Source of the DNA: a virus
Length of the DNA: 41,448 nt
Strand: one strand, 5' to 3'
Virus genome (UHGV): UHGV-0135480
The notes below the pieces were generated by a model that was not told where the DNA came from, searched no databases, and saw nothing but the letters and a program-made list of their open reading frames with translations. The stretch's first letter is position 1, and each line of letters opens with the position of its first letter. This document shows positions 41 through 35,991 of this stretch, in pieces. Both the position numbers and the translations under genes were made by a program.

Positions 41-116
41 AGTCCAAGTAGCTTATATGGTTAAAGCGCGTGTCTGAAAAACATGAGAAGAGGGTTCAAA
101 TCCCACTGGACTACCA
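41..116 (+). tRNA. tRNA, probable tRNA-Phe (anticodon GAA)
   Basis: Acceptor agtccag-like pairing 41-47 with 106-112, D-arm with GG, anticodon stem cgtgt(69-73)/acatg(81-85) with loop cTGAAaa (U33, GAA at 76-78), T-loop GGTTCAAATCC, encoded CCA 114-116. One acceptor and one T-stem mismatch lower confidence. Confidence 0.55.
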
Positions 117-132
117 ATTTCAAAGGTGCTTA

Positions 133-867
133 ATGAAAGAGATGACAGAACAAGGTAAGGAGATTTTTAATCTCTTAAAAACCGGTAAAGGGTTTTCTAA
201 CCCACTTATTACTGGTGCAGCAGTTCTCGGTGGAACCGTAGCTGCCTCTACATCACTTGTAAGCTCTATTAGCTCTGTATCAGACCCTACAGTAAAGGAT
301 AAGCTTGTTGCTGCTGGACTTACAACAGTTCTGCTTAACAGCTTTACCACGAGTCTGACAAGCACTACATCAACTACCAAAACACTAACAGATTACGGTC
401 AAAAGTCCATTGATGAGTTTTCATCACGTATGCAGGTAGCAAAAGGTTACTCTAATGTTATGGGTGCAGCAGGTGAACAAGTTGGCTGTACACCATTTAG
501 TGGTATTATGGGTGTTGCTACAGAGTATGGTCAAAAAGCTATTGATACGATTAACAGTGCACTAGATAGTGTTAATGGTGTGTTAAGTGGCTTACAAGAT
601 GCTATTGACAAAGGTCTTGATACTATTTCTGATTTAGCTGAGCAAGCTGTTAGTAAGATTAATGAAGGTATTTCAAAAATTACAGCTTATGCAGATGAAG
701 TTGTGCAGATGATTGAAGAAGAAGCTGCTCTTATTGCAGAGTACCTTAAAACGAATATCAATGGGTTCTTAGCAGGTATCTTACCAGACTGGTTTGATGA
801 TACTTGTAAAACTGGTGTAATTGACACTATTGCAACACCAGAAATGAAGAACGCATTACAGAAATAA
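133..867 (+). CDS. hypothetical Ser/Thr/Ala/Gly-rich protein embedded in the tRNA cluster
   Basis: ORF-track frame 70..867 begins with GTG inside the tRNA; first ATG at 133 is preceded by AGGTGCTTA, the same context as the terL start. No recognisable motif. Confidence 0.5.
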   Translation: MKEMTEQGKEIFNLLKTGKGFSNPLITGAAVLGGTVAASTSLVSSISSVSDPTVKDKLVAAGLTTVLLNSFTTSLTSTTSTTKTLTDYGQKSIDEFSSRMQVAKGYSNVMGAAGEQVGCTPFSGIMGVATEYGQKAIDTINSALDSVNGVLSGLQDAIDKGLDTISDLAEQAVSKINEGISKITAYADEVVQMIEEEAALIAEYLKTNINGFLAGILPDWFDDTCKTGVIDTIATPEMKNALQK

Positions 868-869
868 AT

Positions 870-962
870 GGAAGATTAACCCTAAAAGGTAAGGGAGCAG
901 TTTGCTAAACTGCCAGTAGCTGAGAAATCGGTGTACCAGTTCAAGTCTGGTATCTTCCTCCA
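870..962 (+). tRNA. tRNA-Ser (anticodon GCU), type II with long variable arm
   Basis: Perfect 7-bp acceptor ggaagat(870-876)/atcttcc(952-958), 3-bp D-stem, anticodon stem gcagt/actgc with loop ttGCTaa (GCU at 904-906), about 21-nt variable arm, T-stem accag/ctggt with loop TTCAAGT, CCA 960-962. Confidence 0.75.
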
Positions 963-966
963 ATTT

Positions 967-1042
967 GAATCCGTGACAGAAATGGCTATGTGCCTGTCTG
1001 CAAAACAGGTTTATAAGGGTTCGAGTCCCTTCGGATTCTCCA
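967..1042 (+). tRNA. tRNA-Cys (anticodon GCA)
   Basis: Perfect 7-bp acceptor gaatccg(967-973)/cggattc(1032-1038), anticodon stem cctgt/acagg with loop cTGCAaa (GCA 1000-1002), T-arm aaggg-TTCGAGT-ccctt, discriminator U then CCA 1040-1042. A U73 discriminator is typical of tRNA-Cys. Confidence 0.8.
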
Positions 1043-30353: not shown

Positions 30354-31454
30354 TTATTCATAATCTCGAATAACTAACCCAACAGGGAACTGTAAAGAAC
30401 CCTTACGAGTCATCTTCTGGAACTGTACCGTTAAGGGCTTCCCGATAAACTCTTCAGGATGTTCAGCAAGATACTGTTTCTTCTCGTGTGTAGTTTTCCA
30501 TGAAACATCTACAAAGACGTTAGGAAGAGTCTCTACAACGAACTTGCCATGACCACGTTTGTCAGTCTTTACACCAGTCACTTTAAATTCTTCAGTGTGC
30601 ATCTTCTTGTGCTTAATCAAGAAGTATGAACGGTGACCACACTCATAGAAGGAGTCTTCAGAGATTGAACGGTACATTGCACCTTCAAACTTAGCTTCAA
30701 CCCACTTATCATGGGCTTCATCAAACTCTTCCCAAGAATTTACACGACGAGACTTAACAGGAACAACTTTACAGCCATCTCTAAAGTCATTCAATGGTGA
30801 AGTCTCAATAATATCTCTACGCTCAGGCCACGTCTTAGTGCTGTCACAGATATCGTACCAGTAGAACTGGAGTAGATGTCGGTCTGGATTGTCAGCATTC
30901 TTAATCATAGACACAATATCTTCTAAGTCCCAACCATGAGCATAAATCTCACCATCAAAGTCTTCTACTTGTGGATGCAATTTAAGCAACAAAAGCAAAT
31001 CTGGGGTTAGTTCTGCTGGGACGTTGTAAATAGTATTCTCACGAGAATAAGCCGTGAAGCTAACTAAATCAGCATCTCTTGAGATTCTACAACGGACACC
31101 ATCAAGTTTTGGTTGAGCATCAGCAGGGAACTTCAGATACTTTGCATGACTAACCTTTGCAGCATCATGAGCAAGCTGTACACCTACCTTCTCAGTATTC
31201 TGTGCAGACTCTTTTGTGTAAGCATAGCCTTTACGGTCAACTTGCTTTTTATACTTAGCAGCAACTTCAAAGAGAGCTTGCTGTTCAGCATTACGCTCAT
31301 TCTTTTTACCGATGTTTTTAGGTTCTGCTGTATACTCTTCAAACATCATCTTGCCATTTTCTTTACCGTAGGTTGTAATAACTTTGTCACCTACAGCAAC
31401 GCATGACCAGACGTTAAAAGAGCCATCTTTATTTTGTTTGTACAGAATTGTCAT
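30354..31454 (-). CDS. ATP-dependent DNA ligase
   Basis: Adenylation motif KLDGVRC (K-x-D-G), size about 366 aa; ATG at 31454 has AGAGG upstream (ORF-track start 31490 is another in-frame ATG). N-terminal region of about 95 aa precedes the catalytic motif. Confidence 0.75.
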   Translation of the reverse strand: MTILYKQNKDGSFNVWSCVAVGDKVITTYGKENGKMMFEEYTAEPKNIGKKNERNAEQQALFEVAAKYKKQVDRKGYAYTKESAQNTEKVGVQLAHDAAKVSHAKYLKFPADAQPKLDGVRCRISRDADLVSFTAYSRENTIYNVPAELTPDLLLLLKLHPQVEDFDGEIYAHGWDLEDIVSMIKNADNPDRHLLQFYWYDICDSTKTWPERRDIIETSPLNDFRDGCKVVPVKSRRVNSWEEFDEAHDKWVEAKFEGAMYRSISEDSFYECGHRSYFLIKHKKMHTEEFKVTGVKTDKRGHGKFVVETLPNVFVDVSWKTTHEKKQYLAEHPEEFIGKPLTVQFQKMTRKGSLQFPVGLVIRDYE

Positions 31455-31647
31455 TTTTAACCTCTGAGTGATACCAAGTGTAACAAGCATTACATGCGTA
31501 AAGCTCTAAGTCATTTTTATCTGGTTTATGGAAACAGTTTGACCCACAACGACACCGGAATAGTTTACCATCAACACGAAGAATGAATGTTTCAAGCTCA
31601 CCATCTTCTGTAAGAACTGCGTTCTTAAATTTATCTTCTACAGTCAT
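31429..31647 (-). CDS. small Cys-rich zinc-ribbon-like protein
   Basis: 72 aa with CRCGSNCFH and CNACYTWYH; 3' end overlaps the ligase start. Confidence 0.45.
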   Translation of the reverse strand: MTVEDKFKNAVLTEDGELETFILRVDGKLFRCRCGSNCFHKPDKNDLELYACNACYTWYHSEVKNDNSVQTK

Positions 31648-32250: not shown

Positions 32251-32469
32251 TCATAGCAACTCCAGAATATCAATACGCTCACCTTTGAGTACTCCAGTAC
32301 GGTCTTTTGCAATCTTACCTTCAACAATAAGAATGTGTGCAGACCTTAAAGTGTCGCTGTTAAAGGTTTTTACGAACCTACTAGGCATGACTACAATGCA
32401 CATCTCCTGAATCAGCTCTGGAGTATAGCAGTTATCATGAAGTTGCTGAATAACGTCTGCAAGTGTCAT
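32251..32469 (-). CDS. hypothetical small protein
   Basis: ATG at 32469 overlaps the upstream stop (ATGA); ORF-track start is TTG at 32484. Confidence 0.4.
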   Translation of the reverse strand: MTLADVIQQLHDNCYTPELIQEMCIVVMPSRFVKTFNSDTLRSAHILIVEGKIAKDRTGVLKGERIDILELL

Positions 32470-32675
32470 TTTTGATGTCTCCAATATTCAATATCTACAA
32501 GTTCTTGTGCAATGCTTTTAAGGTTACTTTTAAGGAAAACTTTCTCACCACCAGACAGGGAAGTATTATCAATGAGTCTGTTCATTCTCTCAAACAACTT
32601 CTGCTTACGATTCTTGATAGTCTCCTTTGAAGCACCTTTCATCATTGCTGCATGGGTTCTTCCACGGTGGCTCAT
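32466..32675 (-). CDS. hypothetical small basic protein
   Basis: 69 aa, ATG at 32675 with strong AGGAGG RBS. Confidence 0.45.
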   Translation of the reverse strand: MSHRGRTHAAMMKGASKETIKNRKQKLFERMNRLIDNTSLSGGEKVFLKSNLKSIAQELVDIEYWRHQK

Positions 32676-32726
32676 AAGTCCTCCTATATAAGATATTGTA
32701 TAAGGTACTCTTCCATGAGCACCTTG

Positions 32727-33251
32727 TCAACTTAGTTTTGCAAATTCTCCGTGGAGTTTAATAGCAGCTTCACAGTAAGCTTTATGGGCTTCTTCTGGTG
32801 TGTCAAACATACCAAGATGATAGTTTTTACCTTGTAAACGTATCATTGCTCGAAACCTTTTACTTATCTTCTGTACACCTTTTGGCAACCAAGATGGGGA
32901 CTTTCTTGACCGATTGCAAGAGTTTTGTGAAGCTGTACAAACCCTTAAATTCAAGTACCTATTGTCCCAACCGTCCCCATTCTTATGGTCAACCTGTAAG
33001 GTTTTATCAGGTAGGTAACCATCCACATATAGTATTGCTAGACGGTTAGCTTGGTAGCCTTTACCATCAAGCAATAACTGAACAGACTTGTGACCATCTG
33101 TGTTTACCCTATAATTTCCTGCCTTTTTACCTCCAAAACGAGAGTTGAAGTTCTTATTGCCTCGTGATACCGGCTCTCTAAACTTCCAAGTAAAGACCCC
33201 TGTTTCGGGGTCGTAGTCCAATAGCTCCTTAAGACGAATTTCTGTAATCAT
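32727..33251 (-). CDS. HNH homing endonuclease with C-terminal AP2-like DNA-binding domain
   Basis: N-terminal LKELLDYDPETGVFTW motif, HNH core VDHKNGDGWDNRYLNLRVCTASQN, C-terminal AP2-like segment; ATG at 33251 (ORF-track TTG at 33290 would overlap the polymerase). Confidence 0.8.
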   Translation of the reverse strand: MITEIRLKELLDYDPETGVFTWKFREPVSRGNKNFNSRFGGKKAGNYRVNTDGHKSVQLLLDGKGYQANRLAILYVDGYLPDKTLQVDHKNGDGWDNRYLNLRVCTASQNSCNRSRKSPSWLPKGVQKISKRFRAMIRLQGKNYHLGMFDTPEEAHKAYCEAAIKLHGEFAKLS

Positions 33252-33261
33252 TTCAACACCA

Positions 33262-35961
33262 TCAATGTACTTCCAACCAGCTCTTACCAACCTTACCTGT
33301 GCCAGTTACAAGCGTCTCACTCTTCAAACCTAAATTCTTAGATGCCTGACCATACATCCAGTCAGTTATGGCTTTCACTTCTTGAGTCATACTTTCTGGA
33401 CATTCCCAACTGTTTTCATCGTGGTATGCCAGCAAAAGCCTCGCACCGATTGCTGGTTTTCGTCCATTTAATTTTGTCAAACCTTCTTCACACGCTCTTC
33501 TGCAAGCAAGGTTAATTGCCTCATTTTGAATCTGAGCCTCTGAACCCATGAGCAAATAATTCAACAACTTATGTGGAGATTTACACCACAACCAAGCTCC
33601 AGCAACCTTTACAAAACCACCTTTAGAGATTGCAGCAGTCTTACCAAATACCTCTTCAAGTGCCTTTTTAGTTGCTTTGTAGTCAGCTTCCAAATCATCC
33701 AGCAACTTCTTAATTTTAGGCAAACGGATAAAGTAAGTCTGCTTAGTCAGTGCACCTTCCTGAGTAGTTGCAGCTTTAATCGTCTTAGCAAACTTCTCAT
33801 CACCTGCACCAAACAAAAGTGCATAGATACCATTCTTAGCTTTCTTACGACCCTTGCTAATCTCATGGAGAAGGTTCTCATCCTGAGTAGCTCGACAAGT
33901 CAAGATATCCTGCTCATCATTCAAGCTAAAGTAAATACTGTTCAGTGTGTGTGCATCAGTCCCTGAATAGACAACGTACAGGTCATTCTCAGAGTCATAG
34001 CGAAGGTACTTATCAATCTCTGGGTTGAGGTACTCATCAAAGTGTTTGCAGTAATAGCGTCCATCTTCTTGACGAATAAACTCAATCTCTTCTTTACCTT
34101 GCGTTACCGCTTTGGTGAAGTCTTTATCACCCATAAAGTTACAAAGGAGAACTAGCTGGGCTGAGTTCATGTCTACAGAGACAACGTTAGTACCTTCTTC
34201 ACAAATCCACACTGCCCTCATTGGTTCCCCATAGACAGCAGCACCAGACGGTACGTTTACAATACCATATTGTGTCATACGTCCAGTTGAAGTACCAAAC
34301 ACCATTGCACCAGCACTAAGGCGACCATCAGGACGAATCTGGTTCAACCAACCTTTTTCATCATCCTTTGAGTTCTCAATAGTTCTGCGTCGGTGCATCA
34401 AAGTATAGTACTTAGCAATCTTCTGTCCAAGTTCACCTTCAATCGTATCATAAGATGACTCAGTAAGCTTTGGTGAAGTACGGATTAAGCAAGGCTCAAG
34501 CAAATCTGTGTATTTTTTCACAGACCAGTTATGCTCAATGTACTGGACACCTTCATGTTCAACATAGCTCAAACCACACCGCTCAACCATTTCCTGCCAC
34601 TTAGGATGTTTTGTAATCATCTTTTTATTGTCTTTGAAACGACAAACTTTAACAGGGCGACCATCTGAGTCTTTCTTGTAGTTCCAGTCATCTGGTATCC
34701 AACCAACTGATTTCAAGTAGTCTTTAACAACTGCTACCTGAGTCATACGAGAAACTTCAAACTCAATTGGTGTATACGGTGCATCAATCAATCCTGTGTA
34801 TCGACTTGACTCAAGTTCAAAGTGGTTAACAACGTGGCTGTTATAGTACTTCACAGTTTTGACTGTTTTTACTGACTTCCAGTCTTTGCATTTCTTACCA
34901 ATCTTTGCGTTCAACTCATTGCAAATTGCACGAGCATCCTTCATTGCTACAAAGCCTTCCTTGTACTCTTCACCAGTTACAGAGTTGGTTGGTGTATAGC
35001 AATTTCTCTTTTCAATGTTAAAAATCTTTGTAGTTGGCTTACCAAATGGTTTGATTTCATAAGTCTGCATCTCACCATTACGTACCTGCTGACGATACTT
35101 CGTCTTAGGGTACTTGGTAATTCTTTTCAGTCCATCTGCATGACCAAATGCTTCAACATACTCATTCCAAGCCTTTGCAAACTCTTCTCCAGTGACTTTA
35201 CCTTTGGTCTTAATAGTTGGAGGTAGATGTGGTTCAACCTCTGAAGCAAGCTCATTAGTCAACTTGTCAAGTTCCTTTACATGGAACTCCATAAGCTCTT
35301 TATCAGCTTTCCAGCCATTGATAGCTTGTTGACTCATCCAGAAAGATGTTTCTTTAGCTCGCATGTAGGTTTCATAAGTGTCTATGCCACACTTCTTAAG
35401 CTTGAGATATTCATTATCAAGTGCCCGTTTAGTTTTGGCGTTAATACGGATATCTTCTACAACACGAGTGAAGATTTCTGCATTCCACACACCCCAGTGT
35501 TCAATCTCTGGTTTACGAACACCAACACGAGCACCCCATGCAGCCAAACCATGAGCACCTTTATAACCCTTTGGAGTTGGTCTATCCATCCACTGAACAC
35601 GAGACTGGATAAGAGAATCCTGAAAGAAATTACTCCACGGTTTACACTTTGGATTATCAAAGTTCCATAAATCAGGTGCAATGTGATTGAAAACCCACCA
35701 GTCATAACCGAGACCATTATGGATGCAAAGACGTTTTGCCTTTAACGCAAACTCAATACCTTCACGTAAGCCACCCTTGATGTACTTGGTGTACTTGTGA
35801 CCGAGAATAGGTTCATCTGTAAAGACCCATACAGGTGGCTCTTCATCGTCAGATTTATAGTCTGCGAAAGCCATTACGTGCACTTTAGTGAACTCAAGGA
35901 GTAAACCATCAGTTTCTGTATCACCAACTAAATGTAAGTTTTTAAAATCTACGTTTTCCAT
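33262..35961 (-). CDS. DNA polymerase, family A, with N-terminal 3'-5' exonuclease domain
   Basis: About 899 aa; Exo I motif LVGDTETDGL near the N-terminus, polymerase-domain length and C-terminal His typical of Pol I/T7 gp5-type enzymes; ATG at 35961 has GAGGGA upstream (ORF-track ATG 35991 also possible). Confidence 0.9.
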   Translation of the reverse strand: MENVDFKNLHLVGDTETDGLLLEFTKVHVMAFADYKSDDEEPPVWVFTDEPILGHKYTKYIKGGLREGIEFALKAKRLCIHNGLGYDWWVFNHIAPDLWNFDNPKCKPWSNFFQDSLIQSRVQWMDRPTPKGYKGAHGLAAWGARVGVRKPEIEHWGVWNAEIFTRVVEDIRINAKTKRALDNEYLKLKKCGIDTYETYMRAKETSFWMSQQAINGWKADKELMEFHVKELDKLTNELASEVEPHLPPTIKTKGKVTGEEFAKAWNEYVEAFGHADGLKRITKYPKTKYRQQVRNGEMQTYEIKPFGKPTTKIFNIEKRNCYTPTNSVTGEEYKEGFVAMKDARAICNELNAKIGKKCKDWKSVKTVKTVKYYNSHVVNHFELESSRYTGLIDAPYTPIEFEVSRMTQVAVVKDYLKSVGWIPDDWNYKKDSDGRPVKVCRFKDNKKMITKHPKWQEMVERCGLSYVEHEGVQYIEHNWSVKKYTDLLEPCLIRTSPKLTESSYDTIEGELGQKIAKYYTLMHRRRTIENSKDDEKGWLNQIRPDGRLSAGAMVFGTSTGRMTQYGIVNVPSGAAVYGEPMRAVWICEEGTNVVSVDMNSAQLVLLCNFMGDKDFTKAVTQGKEEIEFIRQEDGRYYCKHFDEYLNPEIDKYLRYDSENDLYVVYSGTDAHTLNSIYFSLNDEQDILTCRATQDENLLHEISKGRKKAKNGIYALLFGAGDEKFAKTIKAATTQEGALTKQTYFIRLPKIKKLLDDLEADYKATKKALEEVFGKTAAISKGGFVKVAGAWLWCKSPHKLLNYLLMGSEAQIQNEAINLACRRACEEGLTKLNGRKPAIGARLLLAYHDENSWECPESMTQEVKAITDWMYGQASKNLGLKSETLVTGTGKVGKSWLEVH

Positions 35962-35991
35962 TTTTACTCCCTCTAAAATCATTAACCTCAT

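What the first reader, a model, noticed from the sequence alone, without database searches (positions are those of the whole stretch)
32727..33251. Free-standing HNH-AP2 homing endonuclease immediately downstream of the DNA polymerase gene
The endonuclease gene starts 11 nt after the polymerase stop on the same strand. Homing endonucleases typically sit next to conserved essential genes that they cleave in endonuclease-free relatives, so this is probably a selfish element using the polymerase locus.
Basis: partly seen in the sequence, partly recalled or inferred. Interest (0 to 1): 0.45.

Follow-up and report, generated by a model that had tools for sequence, protein, structure and literature searches.

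The report
Homing endonuclease gene beside phage polymerase
This is an ordinary, already-annotated selfish nuclease gene (HNH nuclease plus AP2 DNA-binding domain) sitting just after the DNA polymerase gene of a Felix O1-like phage, and related phages carry four interchangeable versions of it, or none, at exactly the same spot.

Summary
A 174-aa ORF lies on the minus strand at 32727-33251 and starts at the 11th nt after the stop of a family-A DNA polymerase gene (33262-35991). It has an I-HmuI-like HNH nuclease domain with its catalytic residues intact, followed by a C-terminal AP2 domain.

The window comes from a Felixounavirus. The selfish-element reading is supported by comparison with relatives:
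- **Site occupancy:** the site just 3' of the pol stop is empty in many relatives (61-nt spacer). In others it holds one of four divergent HNH-AP2 types, A to D. The window carries type A, found in about 26 of 260 GenBank records.
- **Reshuffling:** HEG type, pol 3'-end allele and downstream flank are combined independently of one another.
- **Horizontal transfer:** a type B copy is 94% identical between phages whose polymerases are only about 62% identical.
- **Selection:** type A copies are under purifying selection (pN/pS 0.11-0.27).

Cleavage, target site and biased inheritance are untested.

Near-identical genes are already annotated as HNH/AP2 homing endonucleases, and Felix O1 HNH-AP2 proteins were described in 2004, so novelty is low. 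The mildly interesting extras are the multi-allelic site, a 69-nt 3' module shared by all four types, and a hypervariable pol 3' end.

The parts
33262..35991 (-). Family-A DNA polymerase gene, the conserved host gene that the endonuclease gene abuts. It is uninterrupted in this window.
   Evidence: ORF. Pfam DNA_pol_A 57.8 bits and PHROG 17 E 4e-113. Annotated as DNA polymerase in Felix O1, KhF3, adrianh and Mushroom.
33262..33503 (-). The last ~240 nt of pol, a hypervariable mosaic block. Identity to empty-site relatives drops from 95-99% to 75-81% with a sharp common breakpoint. There is a smaller divergent patch at about 33545-33575.
   Evidence: 44 synonymous + 10 non-synonymous codon differences in 104 codons, against 25 + 1 in the 296 codons upstream, window vs KhF3. 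At least 8 alleles of this block occur among 36 loci. The window-like allele also occurs without any HEG (pEC-M719-6WT.1, ESCO49).
33252..33261 (-). 10-nt spacer between the pol stop codon and the endonuclease ATG (tggtgttgaa). It has a weak GGTG Shine-Dalgarno-like element and no promoter of its own.
   Evidence: Sequence. The promoter scan found no candidate upstream of the ORF on the minus strand.
32727..33251 (-). Free-standing HNH-AP2 homing endonuclease gene, type A, 174 aa. The stop codon TGA is at 32729-32727.
   Evidence: Purifying selection among type A copies, pN/pS 0.11-0.27.
32919..33053 (-). HNH (beta-beta-alpha-metal) nuclease core, residues 67-111. D88-H89 are encoded at 32985-32990.
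   Evidence: Pfam HNH_3. Alignment to I-HmuI 1u3e. Residue numbering. Conservation.
32748..32870 (-). AP2-type DNA-binding domain, residues 128-168 (three strands plus a helix).
   Evidence: Pfam AP2 E 1.9e-6, below the curated cut-off. Secondary structure E126-129, E132-139, E142-149, H152-170. Superposes on AtERF1 1gcc at rmsd 0.9 A over 50 columns and on TEM1 AP2.
32727..32795 (-). 69-nt 3' module (encoding EEAHKAYCEAAIKLHGEFAKLS*) that is nearly identical in all four otherwise 43-53%-identical endonuclease types. The boundary is sharp.
   Evidence: DNA alignment of types A-D. Protein listing. DNA hits of this segment to Felix O1-type loci.
33195..33212 (-). Perfect 6-bp GC hairpin GACCCC-gaaaca-GGGGTC inside the ORF (codons D14-V19), followed by a T-rich stretch.
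   Evidence: Present once in every HEG-bearing locus and in no empty one. The stems are kept with different loops in type D and in L017. It is not kept in distant homologues.
32676..32730 (-). Conserved intergenic segment starting with TTGACA (32730-32725, overlapping the endonuclease stop codon) and ending with the AGGAGG ribosome-binding site of the next gene. Present in both HEG-bearing and empty genomes.
   Evidence: Alignments. Depositors of phage AYO145A annotate a promoter here, but the hexamers are 22 nt apart and the scan here did not call it.
32466..32675 (-). Downstream 69-aa gene of unknown function (PHROG 5180), which forms the right-hand flank of the insertion site.
   Evidence: The gene is itself absent from some relatives.

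Best explanation
The ORF is a free-standing homing endonuclease gene of a Felix O1-like myophage. It is a promoter-less cassette placed just after the DNA polymerase stop codon and is expressed from the polymerase message, probably by translational coupling or re-initiation.

The protein joins two parts: an I-HmuI-like N-terminal DNA-binding and HNH nuclease module, and a C-terminal AP2 DNA-binding domain.

Proposed mechanism (inferred, by analogy with T4 seg/mob genes and I-HmuI). In a mixed infection the enzyme nicks or cuts a specific sequence in co-infecting relatives that lack this cassette. That site lies at the pol-stop/intergenic junction or within the last few hundred nt of pol. Recombinational repair then uses the endonuclease-bearing genome as template and copies the cassette together with adjoining pol 3' sequence. 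Its own genome is protected because the insertion and linked substitutions alter the site.

Shown here: the gene anatomy, intact catalytic residues, the fold, purifying selection, presence/absence and type replacement at one exact site, mosaic flanks, and horizontal transfer of a sister type.

Inferred: enzymatic activity, nick versus double-strand cut, location of the target, and biased inheritance.
For: - **Domains and fold:**
- **Catalytic residues:** D88-H89, N97, N101, N110 and N113 are conserved.
- **Empty site:** a clean indel defines an empty site in KhF3 and others, pol TGA-T|TAGTA|TTGACA, 61 nt to the next gene.
- **Four types at one position:** all four are HNH_3+AP2 genes. GenBank counts at 80% aa identity or more are A 26, B 47, C 55, D 18, out of about 257-262 matching records.
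- **Backbone mismatch:** phages 97-99% identical across pol carry A or B. Type A also sits on an ~85%-identical backbone, L012.
- **Same pol-end allele with and without a HEG:** L032 vs L033-35, L022 vs L021, L017/19 vs L010. The differences are concentrated in the last ~25 nt of pol, which suggests a short linked tract.
- **Horizontal transfer:** type B is 93.8% identical between L009 and the Hafnia-phage-like L030, whose pol is 60-64% identical.
- **Selection:** pN/pS is 0.11-0.27 among type A copies.
- **Precedent:** promoter-less cassettes, distant cleavage sites, co-conversion and HNH mob enzymes that nick one strand are established for T4 free-standing endonucleases (PMC2988022).
Against: - No activity, target site or inheritance data exist for this protein or, as far as I found, for any Felixounavirus HNH.
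- The comparative pattern cannot separate gain by homing from repeated precise loss plus ordinary recombination.
- The divergent 240-nt pol block is not strictly linked to the endonuclease. pEC-M719-6WT.1 and ESCO49 have the window-like block without any HEG, so reading it as a co-conversion tract is only suggestive.
- The AP2 Pfam score of this particular copy is below the curated cut-off.
- This copy has a unique G121W change in the inter-domain linker, of unknown effect.
Confidence: 0.75

Rival explanations
1. A once-mobile endonuclease gene that no longer homes. The four types and the empty sites would then reflect an old insertion followed by divergence, ordinary homologous recombination between co-infecting phages, and occasional precise deletion. 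The protein would be kept for some other benefit to the phage, such as excluding competitors or degrading foreign DNA.
For: - All four types share a 69-nt 3' module and the same hairpin-coding segment, as expected from common ancestry plus partial gene conversion.
- For A, C and some B pairs, HEG divergence tracks backbone divergence. Window vs L012: HEG 86%, pol 85%. L017 vs L024: 85% and 86%.
- Empty sites occur on the same pol-end allele as occupied ones, which loss explains as well as gain.
- Purifying selection fits a useful function.
Against: - The type B copy in L030 is 94% identical on a ~62%-identical backbone with an unalignable downstream flank. That requires site-specific horizontal acquisition, not vertical descent.
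- A and B are exchanged on 97-99%-identical backbones, with breakpoints within about 25 nt of the pol stop.
- Exclusion of competitors through cleavage is itself the homing mechanism, so this rival overlaps the main explanation.
Confidence: 0.15
2. A domesticated AP2-type DNA-binding regulator. The protein would mainly bind DNA to control transcription or replication near the pol operon, with the HNH domain vestigial.
For: - A well-formed AP2 fold.
- Position at a junction next to a segment that others annotate as a promoter.
- The T4 endonuclease I-TevI is known to double as an autorepressor (established knowledge, summarised in PMC2988022).
Against: - The gene is dispensable: many relatives have an empty site.
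- The HNH catalytic residues are conserved under purifying selection.
- Four types with different AP2 beta-sheets occupy the same site. That is hard to reconcile with one conserved operator.
Confidence: 0.05
3. 'Collaborative homing' partner of the group I intron found in the pol gene of relatives. The free-standing enzyme would cut the intron insertion site of intron-less pol genes and mobilise an ORF-less intron, as F-CphI does for psbA.
For: - Mushroom (type A) and tootiki (type D) carry an ORF-less group I intron in pol motif B, 557 nt upstream of the pol stop.
- That geometry resembles the psbA/F-CphI case (PMC2988022).
Against: - The window has no intron.
- The intron insertion site is identical in intron-less HEG+ phages (L003, L008, L007, L009) and intron-less HEG- phages (L010, L013, L015). 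A type A or B enzyme that cut it would cut its own genome.
- Intron and HEG states assort independently, and some introns carry their own Endonuclease VII-family ORF.
Confidence: 0.05

Closest known systems
HNH-AP2 homing endonucleases of Felix O1-like phages as already annotated (for example Mushroom AJF40568.1 'HNH homing endonuclease, AP2/ERF domain', adrianh_21, Felix O1 ORF218), and the HNH-AP2 class described by Magnani et al. 2004 and Wuitschick et al. 2004
   Same: - Same gene at the same locus. Mushroom and adrianh carry type A at about 91-93% nt identity.
- Felix O1 itself carries type D at the same site.
- The Felix O1 genome paper counts six HNH genes (PMC3185647).
- The HNH+AP2 architecture in Felix 01 is cited from Magnani 2004 in PMC5318435.
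   Different: Nothing essential differs. This copy is a 4-aa-longer subtype (174 vs 170 aa) with a 12-nt indel and a unique G121W change. None of these proteins has been tested biochemically, as far as I could find.
I-HmuI (Bacillus phage SPO1, PDB 1u3e)
   Same: It is the best sequence and structure match in the PDB. The order is the same, an N-terminal beta-sheet DNA-binding region followed by an HNH core with a D-H...N...N active site. It is also associated with a phage DNA polymerase gene. I-HmuI nicks one strand (established knowledge), so a nickase is the default expectation here.
   Different: I-HmuI is encoded inside a group I intron and has helical and helix-turn-helix C-terminal DNA-binding modules. 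This protein is free-standing and ends in an AP2 domain. Identity is about 20% and the global TM-score only 0.39.
T4 free-standing endonucleases (mobA-E, segA-G): 'intronless homing'
   Same: Shared features (PMC2988022):
- intergenic position between conserved genes;
- same orientation as neighbours;
- promoter-less cassette riding on the upstream gene's transcript;
- mosaic, co-converted flanks;
- sporadic distribution.

MobA and MobE are HNH enzymes that nick.
   Different: Different phage lineage (Ounavirinae) and a different DNA-binding domain (AP2). Activity and target are unknown here.
SegH/Hef replacing mobC/mobE in T4-related phages (Sandegren et al. 2005, cited in PMC2988022), and the I-HmuI/I-HmuII competition in SPO1/SP82
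   Same: Different endonuclease genes occupy the same genomic site in related phages. The flanking markers of an essential gene are swept along.
   Different: Here four types of ONE family share the site and a common 69-nt 3' end. Competition between them is only hypothesised.
F-CphI / psbA collaborative homing
   Same: A free-standing endonuclease lies just downstream of a gene that carries an ORF-less group I intron in some relatives.
   Different: The intron is absent from the window, and the insertion site is not diverged in HEG-bearing intron-less genomes. The defining relationship is therefore not met.

Membership tests
HNH (beta-beta-alpha-metal) endonucleases, I-HmuI-like / Pfam HNH_3 | Profile match above the curated threshold | tested here: met
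   PF13392 scores 45.3 bits against a cut-off of 24.8, E 6.7e-12. PHROG 99 E 9e-58.
HNH (beta-beta-alpha-metal) endonucleases, I-HmuI-like / Pfam HNH_3 | Catalytic Asp-His general base, structural Asn, and Asn/His metal ligand on the helix | tested here: met
   D88-H89, N97, N101, N110 and N113 align with the DH...N...N segment of 1u3e. D88, H89, N97 and N110 are at least 90% conserved, and N101 and N113 are invariant in 60 homologues. Which of N110 or N113 is the metal ligand is not resolved. Type C has Ser at the N110 column.
HNH (beta-beta-alpha-metal) endonucleases, I-HmuI-like / Pfam HNH_3 | Beta-beta-alpha fold resembling a solved HNH homing endonuclease | tested here: met
   Model pLDDT is 94.3, with strands 86-89 and 102-105 followed by helix 107-112. 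The top Foldseek PDB hit is I-HmuI, E 6.7e-5, probability 1.00. The global TM-score is only 0.39 because the domain arrangement differs.
HNH (beta-beta-alpha-metal) endonucleases, I-HmuI-like / Pfam HNH_3 | Metal-dependent site-specific DNA nicking or cleavage | not testable with these tools
   Needs purified protein and substrate DNA.
AP2/ERF DNA-binding domain (Pfam PF00847) | Profile match above the curated threshold | tested here: not met
   28.5 bits against a cut-off of 33.3, although E is 1.9e-6. The sister types B, C and D pass at 38.4, 47.5 and 39.0 bits, and most homologues carry precomputed PF00847.
AP2/ERF DNA-binding domain (Pfam PF00847) | Three-stranded antiparallel sheet packed on a C-terminal helix | tested here: met
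   E126-129, E132-139, E142-149, H152-170. AtERF1 1gcc superposes at rmsd 0.9 A over 50 columns with target TM-score 0.69. TEM1 AP2 (7et5) superposes at rmsd 1.4 A.
Free-standing homing endonuclease gene (intronless homing) | Located between conserved genes, not inside an intron or intein | tested here: met
   It lies between the pol stop and the PHROG 5180 gene. It is not in frame with pol and no Rfam intron occurs here.
Free-standing homing endonuclease gene (intronless homing) | Presence/absence polymorphism at one exact site among close relatives | tested here: met
   12 of 38 loci have an empty 55-61-nt spacer (61 nt in all but L021, which has 55) and 23 have an HNH-AP2 gene. Further empty sites are shown.
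Free-standing homing endonuclease gene (intronless homing) | Distribution incongruent with phage phylogeny, or horizontal transfer | tested here: met
   Types A, B, C and empty each occur on both the ~97% and the ~85% pol backbones. Type B is 93.8% identical on a 60-64%-identical backbone. For type A itself the evidence is replacement (A vs B on near-identical backbones) rather than long-range transfer.
Free-standing homing endonuclease gene (intronless homing) | Co-conversion of flanking sequence | tested here: inconclusive
   Mosaic breakpoints lie at ~240 nt and within ~25 nt of the pol stop. However, the window-like 240-nt allele also exists without a HEG, so the cause is not established.
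Free-standing homing endonuclease gene (intronless homing) | Cleavage of HEG-less allele, immunity of own allele, super-Mendelian inheritance | not testable with these tools
   Requires biochemistry and phage crosses.
Collaborative homing (free-standing HEG + ORF-less intron) | HEG-bearing intron-less genomes must differ from susceptible genomes at the intron insertion site | tested here: not met
   The insertion-site sequence is identical in HEG+ (L003, L008, L007, L009) and HEG- (L010, L013, L015) genomes.
Terminase-associated HNH packaging factor | Conserved adjacency to terminase/portal genes and universal presence | tested here: not met
   It lies in the replication module between pol and ligase and is absent from many relatives.

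The most novel reading that the evidence does not exclude
The position just after the polymerase stop codon would be a multi-allelic arena where four HNH-AP2 endonuclease types compete. Each would cut genomes that carry a rival type or an empty site.

Two features would follow from this:
- The shared 69-nt 3' module plus the conserved intergenic segment would act as the common right-hand recombination arm, allowing cassette-for-cassette replacement.
- Repeated rounds of cleavage and repair would have made the last ~240-300 nt of an essential polymerase gene hypervariable. At least 8 alleles at 60-85% identity exist in phages that are otherwise 95-99% identical.

The lineage-specific GC hairpin inside every cassette could then be a regulatory or recombination element of the cassette.
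Probability: 0.3. Interest if true: 0.5.

Novelty: already known. Interest (0 to 1): 0.27.

Why it matters
For the window itself it matters little. The gene is a routine selfish element that annotators of related phages have already labelled correctly, and it should simply be annotated as a free-standing HNH-AP2 homing endonuclease.

The comparative picture is more useful. Felixounaviruses are used for Salmonella and E. coli typing and biocontrol. Their polymerase 3' end and the adjoining site form a recombination hot spot containing:
- four endonuclease types;
- ORF-less and ORF-bearing group I introns;
- reshuffled flanks.

Anyone using pol as a phylogenetic or taxonomic marker should avoid its last ~1 kb. 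The system is also a convenient natural set of allelic endonucleases for testing competition between homing endonucleases, and for testing the DNA specificity of prokaryotic AP2 domains.

Tried and rejected
1. **Collaborative homing with the pol intron.** Rejected because the intron insertion site is identical in HEG+ and HEG- intron-less genomes, and the window has no intron.
2. **The GC hairpin (33195-33212) as a family-wide RNA/DNA structure.** Among 79 homologues that share the YDP[ED][TK]GV motif, only the Felixounavirus-type copies keep 6 Watson-Crick pairs and most keep 2-4. The surrounding 141 nt fold no better than shuffles, z = 0.71. It is kept only as an unexplained lineage-specific feature.
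3. **A sigma-70 promoter at the TTGACA overlapping the stop codon.** The scan did not call it. The promoter annotated in AYO145A has a 22-nt spacer. Unverified.
4. **The 240-nt divergent pol block as a HEG-linked co-conversion tract.** Weakened, because two HEG-less phages carry the same block.
5. **Other HNH-AP2 paralogues in the window.** None were found by tblastn. A second paralogue family exists elsewhere in Felixounavirus genomes.
6. **NCBIfam.** No hit for the endonuclease.
7. **Literature.** No experimental characterisation of any Felixounavirus HNH enzyme was found.

Full report
**What is in the sequence**

The finding's coordinates hold a real ORF on the minus strand, 32727..33251 (ATG start, 174 aa). 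An in-frame TTG at 33290 would give 187 aa.

Directly upstream on the same strand is a 909-aa ORF, 33262..35991. It matches family-A DNA polymerases (Pfam DNA_pol_A 57.8 bits; PHROG 17 E 4e-113). The polymerase TGA stop (33264-33262) is followed by the 10 nt tggtgttgaa and then the ATG.

No sigma-70-like promoter is found in front of the ORF. In the sister types the start codon overlaps the pol stop (type B, TGATG) or lies 18 nt inside pol (type D). The arrangement is that of a promoter-less cassette translated from the polymerase message. That reading is an inference from anatomy.

**The protein**

| Test | Result |
|---|---|
| Pfam HNH_3, residues 67-111 | 45.3 bits, cut-off 24.8 |
| Pfam AP2, residues 128-168 | 28.5 bits, cut-off 33.3, E 1.9e-6 (below cut-off) |
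| PHROG 99 'HNH endonuclease' | E 9e-58 |
| phmmer against PDB sequences | I-HmuI (1u3e), E 3.8e-4, then plant AP2/ERF domains |
| AlphaFold2 model from 60 homologues | pLDDT 94.3 |
| Foldseek against PDB | best hit I-HmuI, E 6.7e-5; C-terminal domain on AtERF1 AP2 at 0.9 A over 50 columns |

- In the I-HmuI alignment, D88-H89, N97, N101, N110 and N113 fall on the DH...N...N active-site segment.
- All of these residues are invariant or at least 90% conserved in the 60-sequence alignment.
- The catalytic machinery is therefore intact, and the two-domain HNH+AP2 description is right.

**Where the window comes from**

The region is 90-97% identical to many Felixounavirus genomes (Felix O1-like myophages of Salmonella, Escherichia, Shigella and Citrobacter). 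The closest GenBank match is Felixounavirus LF82P2. The closest IMG/VR contig is UViG_3300045988_004931.

In phage Mushroom the homologous gene is already annotated "HNH homing endonuclease; AP2/ERF domain", and in adrianh "putative HNH endonuclease".

**Presence, absence and replacement**

I oriented 38 related loci on the polymerase and extracted what lies between the pol stop and the next conserved gene.

| State | Example loci | Content after the pol stop |
|---|---|---|
| Empty | KhF3, wV8-like and others (12 loci) | 61-nt spacer (55 nt in L021), pol TGA-T\|TAGTA\|TTGACA... |
| Type A | window, L008, L038, Mushroom, adrianh, L012 | HNH-AP2 gene, 170-174 aa |
| Type B | L007, L009, L018, L022, L030-32 | HNH-AP2 gene, 170 aa |
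| Type C | L011, L017, L019, L024, L025, L037 | HNH-AP2 gene, 175-177 aa |
| Type D | Felix O1 ORF218, tootiki, L026, L027 | HNH-AP2 gene, 167 aa |
| Small gene | L006, L023 | 72-aa paralogue of a downstream gene |

- The four types are only 43-53% identical to each other.
- B, C and D all score as HNH_3 + AP2.
- In the GenBank phage collection, copies at 80% or higher protein identity number about 26 (A), 47 (B), 55 (C) and 18 (D), among about 257-262 matching records. These counts include some duplicate records.

**Evidence bearing on mobility**

1. *Backbone incongruence.* Phages 97-99% identical to the window across pol carry type A (L008, adrianh, Mushroom) or type B (L007, L009, L018). 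Type A also sits on a backbone only ~85% identical (L012). Types B, C and empty are likewise found on both backbones.
2. *Same pol-end allele, different state.* The last 300 nt of pol falls into at least 8 alleles. Several alleles are shared by loci with different states: L032 (B) with L033-35 (empty), L022 (B) with L021 (empty), L017/19 (C) with L010 (empty), L012 (A) with L011 (C), and L031 (B) with L024/25/37 (C). In the occupied/empty pairs, the differences pile up in the last ~25 nt of pol. This suggests the cassette carries a short piece of the pol terminus with it, including a GAGG ribosome-binding motif in type B.
3. *Long-range transfer of a sister type.* Type B is 93.8% identical between Felixounavirus L009 and L030. 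L030 is a Hafnia-phage-like genome (89% to vB_HpaM_Zyzzx) whose pol is 60-64% identical and whose downstream flank does not align.
4. *Independent right flank.* The downstream flank reassorts independently. The window's right flank matches empty-site KhF3 and type D L026, not its closest type A relative L008.
5. *Selection.* Type A copies evolve under purifying selection, pN/pS 0.11-0.27 at pS up to 0.47. The gene is not a decaying relic.

**The polymerase 3' end**

- Against empty-site relatives that are 95-99% identical over the rest of pol, identity falls abruptly to 75-81% about 240 nt before the stop. All of them share the same breakpoint.
- The changes are mostly synonymous: 44 synonymous and 10 non-synonymous codon differences in 104 codons, against 25 and 1 in the preceding 296 codons.
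- I first read this as a co-conversion tract acquired with the endonuclease. Two HEG-less phages, pEC-M719-6WT.1 and ESCO49, carry the same window-like block.
- The safe statement is therefore narrower. The pol terminus next to this site is a recombination mosaic with unusually deep alleles. That is what repeated endonuclease-stimulated gene conversion would produce, but it is not proof of it.

**Features shared by all four types**

- The last 69 nt of the ORF (32727-32795, encoding EEAHKAYCEAAIKLHGEFAKLS) are nearly identical in A-D, with a sharp boundary. The stop codon lies inside a conserved TTGACA that begins the intergenic segment common to occupied and empty genomes. This looks like a common right-hand homology arm, or the remnant of one ancestral insertion whose body has been replaced.
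- A perfect GC hairpin, GACCCC-N6-GGGGTC (33195-33212), occurs once in every occupied locus and never in empty ones. Its loop varies while the stems do not. The same 18 nt occur in a second HNH-AP2 paralogue family elsewhere in Felixounavirus genomes. More distant homologues with the same peptide motif do not keep the pairing, and the local RNA fold is not unusually stable. I leave this unexplained.

**Mechanism proposed**

The model rests on T4 free-standing endonucleases as summarised in PMC2988022: promoter-less cassettes, cleavage sites away from the insertion site, repair with co-conversion, and HNH mob enzymes that nick one strand. It also rests on I-HmuI.

The most likely working is site-specific nicking or cutting of co-infecting genomes that lack this cassette, at or within a few hundred nt upstream of the pol stop. 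Recombinational repair then copies the cassette.

- Shown: anatomy, catalytic residues, fold, selection, polymorphism, mosaicism, horizontal transfer of type B.
- Inferred: activity, target and biased inheritance.

**Rivals**

- *A no-longer-mobile gene kept for another benefit.* This cannot be excluded for type A specifically, since its divergence tracks the backbone.
- *A pure regulator.* Unlikely, given dispensability and the conserved active site.
- *Collaborative homing with the pol intron of relatives.* Rejected, because the insertion site is identical in HEG+ and HEG- intron-less genomes.

**Comparison with what is known, and novelty**

The Felix O1 genome paper already reports six HNH homing endonuclease genes (PMC3185647). 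HNH-AP2 proteins of Felix 01 were described by Magnani et al. 2004, as cited in PMC5318435. A comparative Felixounavirus paper lists homing endonucleases as a variable module (PMC8300805). The gene in the window is 97-98% identical to database entries.

It is therefore already known as a kind and as a gene. Only the population-level picture may be undescribed (four allelic types, the shared 3' module, the hypervariable pol end), and each element of that picture has precedent in T-even and SPO1-like phages.

**Verdict:** observation confirmed, interpretation supported in silico, low novelty, modest interest.

Noticed in passing
window 33195-33212 (minus strand, inside the endonuclease ORF): A perfect 6-bp GC hairpin, GACCCC-gaaaca-GGGGTC, followed by TTTACTT. 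It is conserved at the nucleotide level in all four endonuclease types, with varying loops, and in a second HNH-AP2 paralogue family at another Felixounavirus locus. It uses the codons CCC and GGG in an otherwise AT-rich sequence. More distant homologues do not conserve it, and its function is unknown.
   Followed up: partly
window 32727-32795: A 69-nt 3' end of the endonuclease ORF is nearly identical in four endonuclease types that are otherwise 43-53% identical, and the boundary is sharp. The stop codon sits inside a conserved TTGACA.
   Followed up: partly
window 33262-33503 (and 33545-33575): The last ~240-300 nt of the polymerase gene is hypervariable among phages that are otherwise 95-99% identical across pol. 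There are at least 8 alleles at 60-85% identity, with mostly synonymous differences. A second, longer mosaic block covering the last ~900-1000 nt distinguishes another set of relatives.
   Followed up: partly
window 33818/33819; L002 3855-4159; L005 5337-5620: Relatives (Mushroom, tootiki, L037) carry a 268-311-nt ORF-less group I intron (Rfam RF00028, 61-62 bits) in pol motif B (KNGIYA|LLFGAG). The window has none. The window does have three unique synonymous changes (CTT TTG TTT instead of CTG CTG TTC) in the 9 nt just 3' of the insertion site.
   Followed up: partly
L033 3198-4003 (also L032, L034-L036): In these relatives the same intron is ~800 nt long and contains a 179-aa ORF of the Endonuclease VII family (PF02945, 71 bits). 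The polymerase gene of this genus thus hosts both ORF-less and endonuclease-bearing versions of one intron.
   Followed up: partly
L053, L041, L048, L044 and others (IMG/VR Felixounavirus contigs; not in the window): A second site elsewhere in Felixounavirus genomes also carries several alternative HNH-AP2 types (MGGHQMLTQQTLKEYLHYDPETGVFTW...), including in the contig closest to the window. The window itself has no second copy.
   Followed up: no
window 32466-32675 and relatives L006, L023, L010, L013, L034-36: The 69-aa gene downstream of the site (PHROG 5180) is itself absent from several relatives. Two relatives have an extra 72-aa paralogue of the next gene (PHROG 4230) inserted at the endonuclease site.
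   Followed up: no
window 32889-32891 (codon 121 of the endonuclease): This copy has Trp where all other type A copies have Gly (SPSWLPKG vs SPSGLPKG), in the lower-confidence inter-domain linker. The effect is unknown.
   Followed up: no
L003 930-1454 (phage adrianh): A 174-aa ORF with no Pfam match sits between two pieces annotated as DNA ligase in adrianh. The window's ligase region (30354-31647) lacks it. This may be another variable insertion site.
   Followed up: partly
L145 618-651 (phage AYO145A), equivalent to window ~32697-32730: Depositors annotate a sigma-70 promoter, 'TTGACA(N15-18)TATAAT with 1 mismatch', between pol and the next gene. The two hexamers are actually 22 nt apart, so the annotation is doubtful.
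   Followed up: partly
window 41-1042: tRNA-Phe, tRNA-Ser and tRNA-Cys genes lie here, with a 265-aa DUF7217 ORF (70-867) between the first two. The longest reading of that ORF overlaps tRNA-Phe.
   Followed up: no
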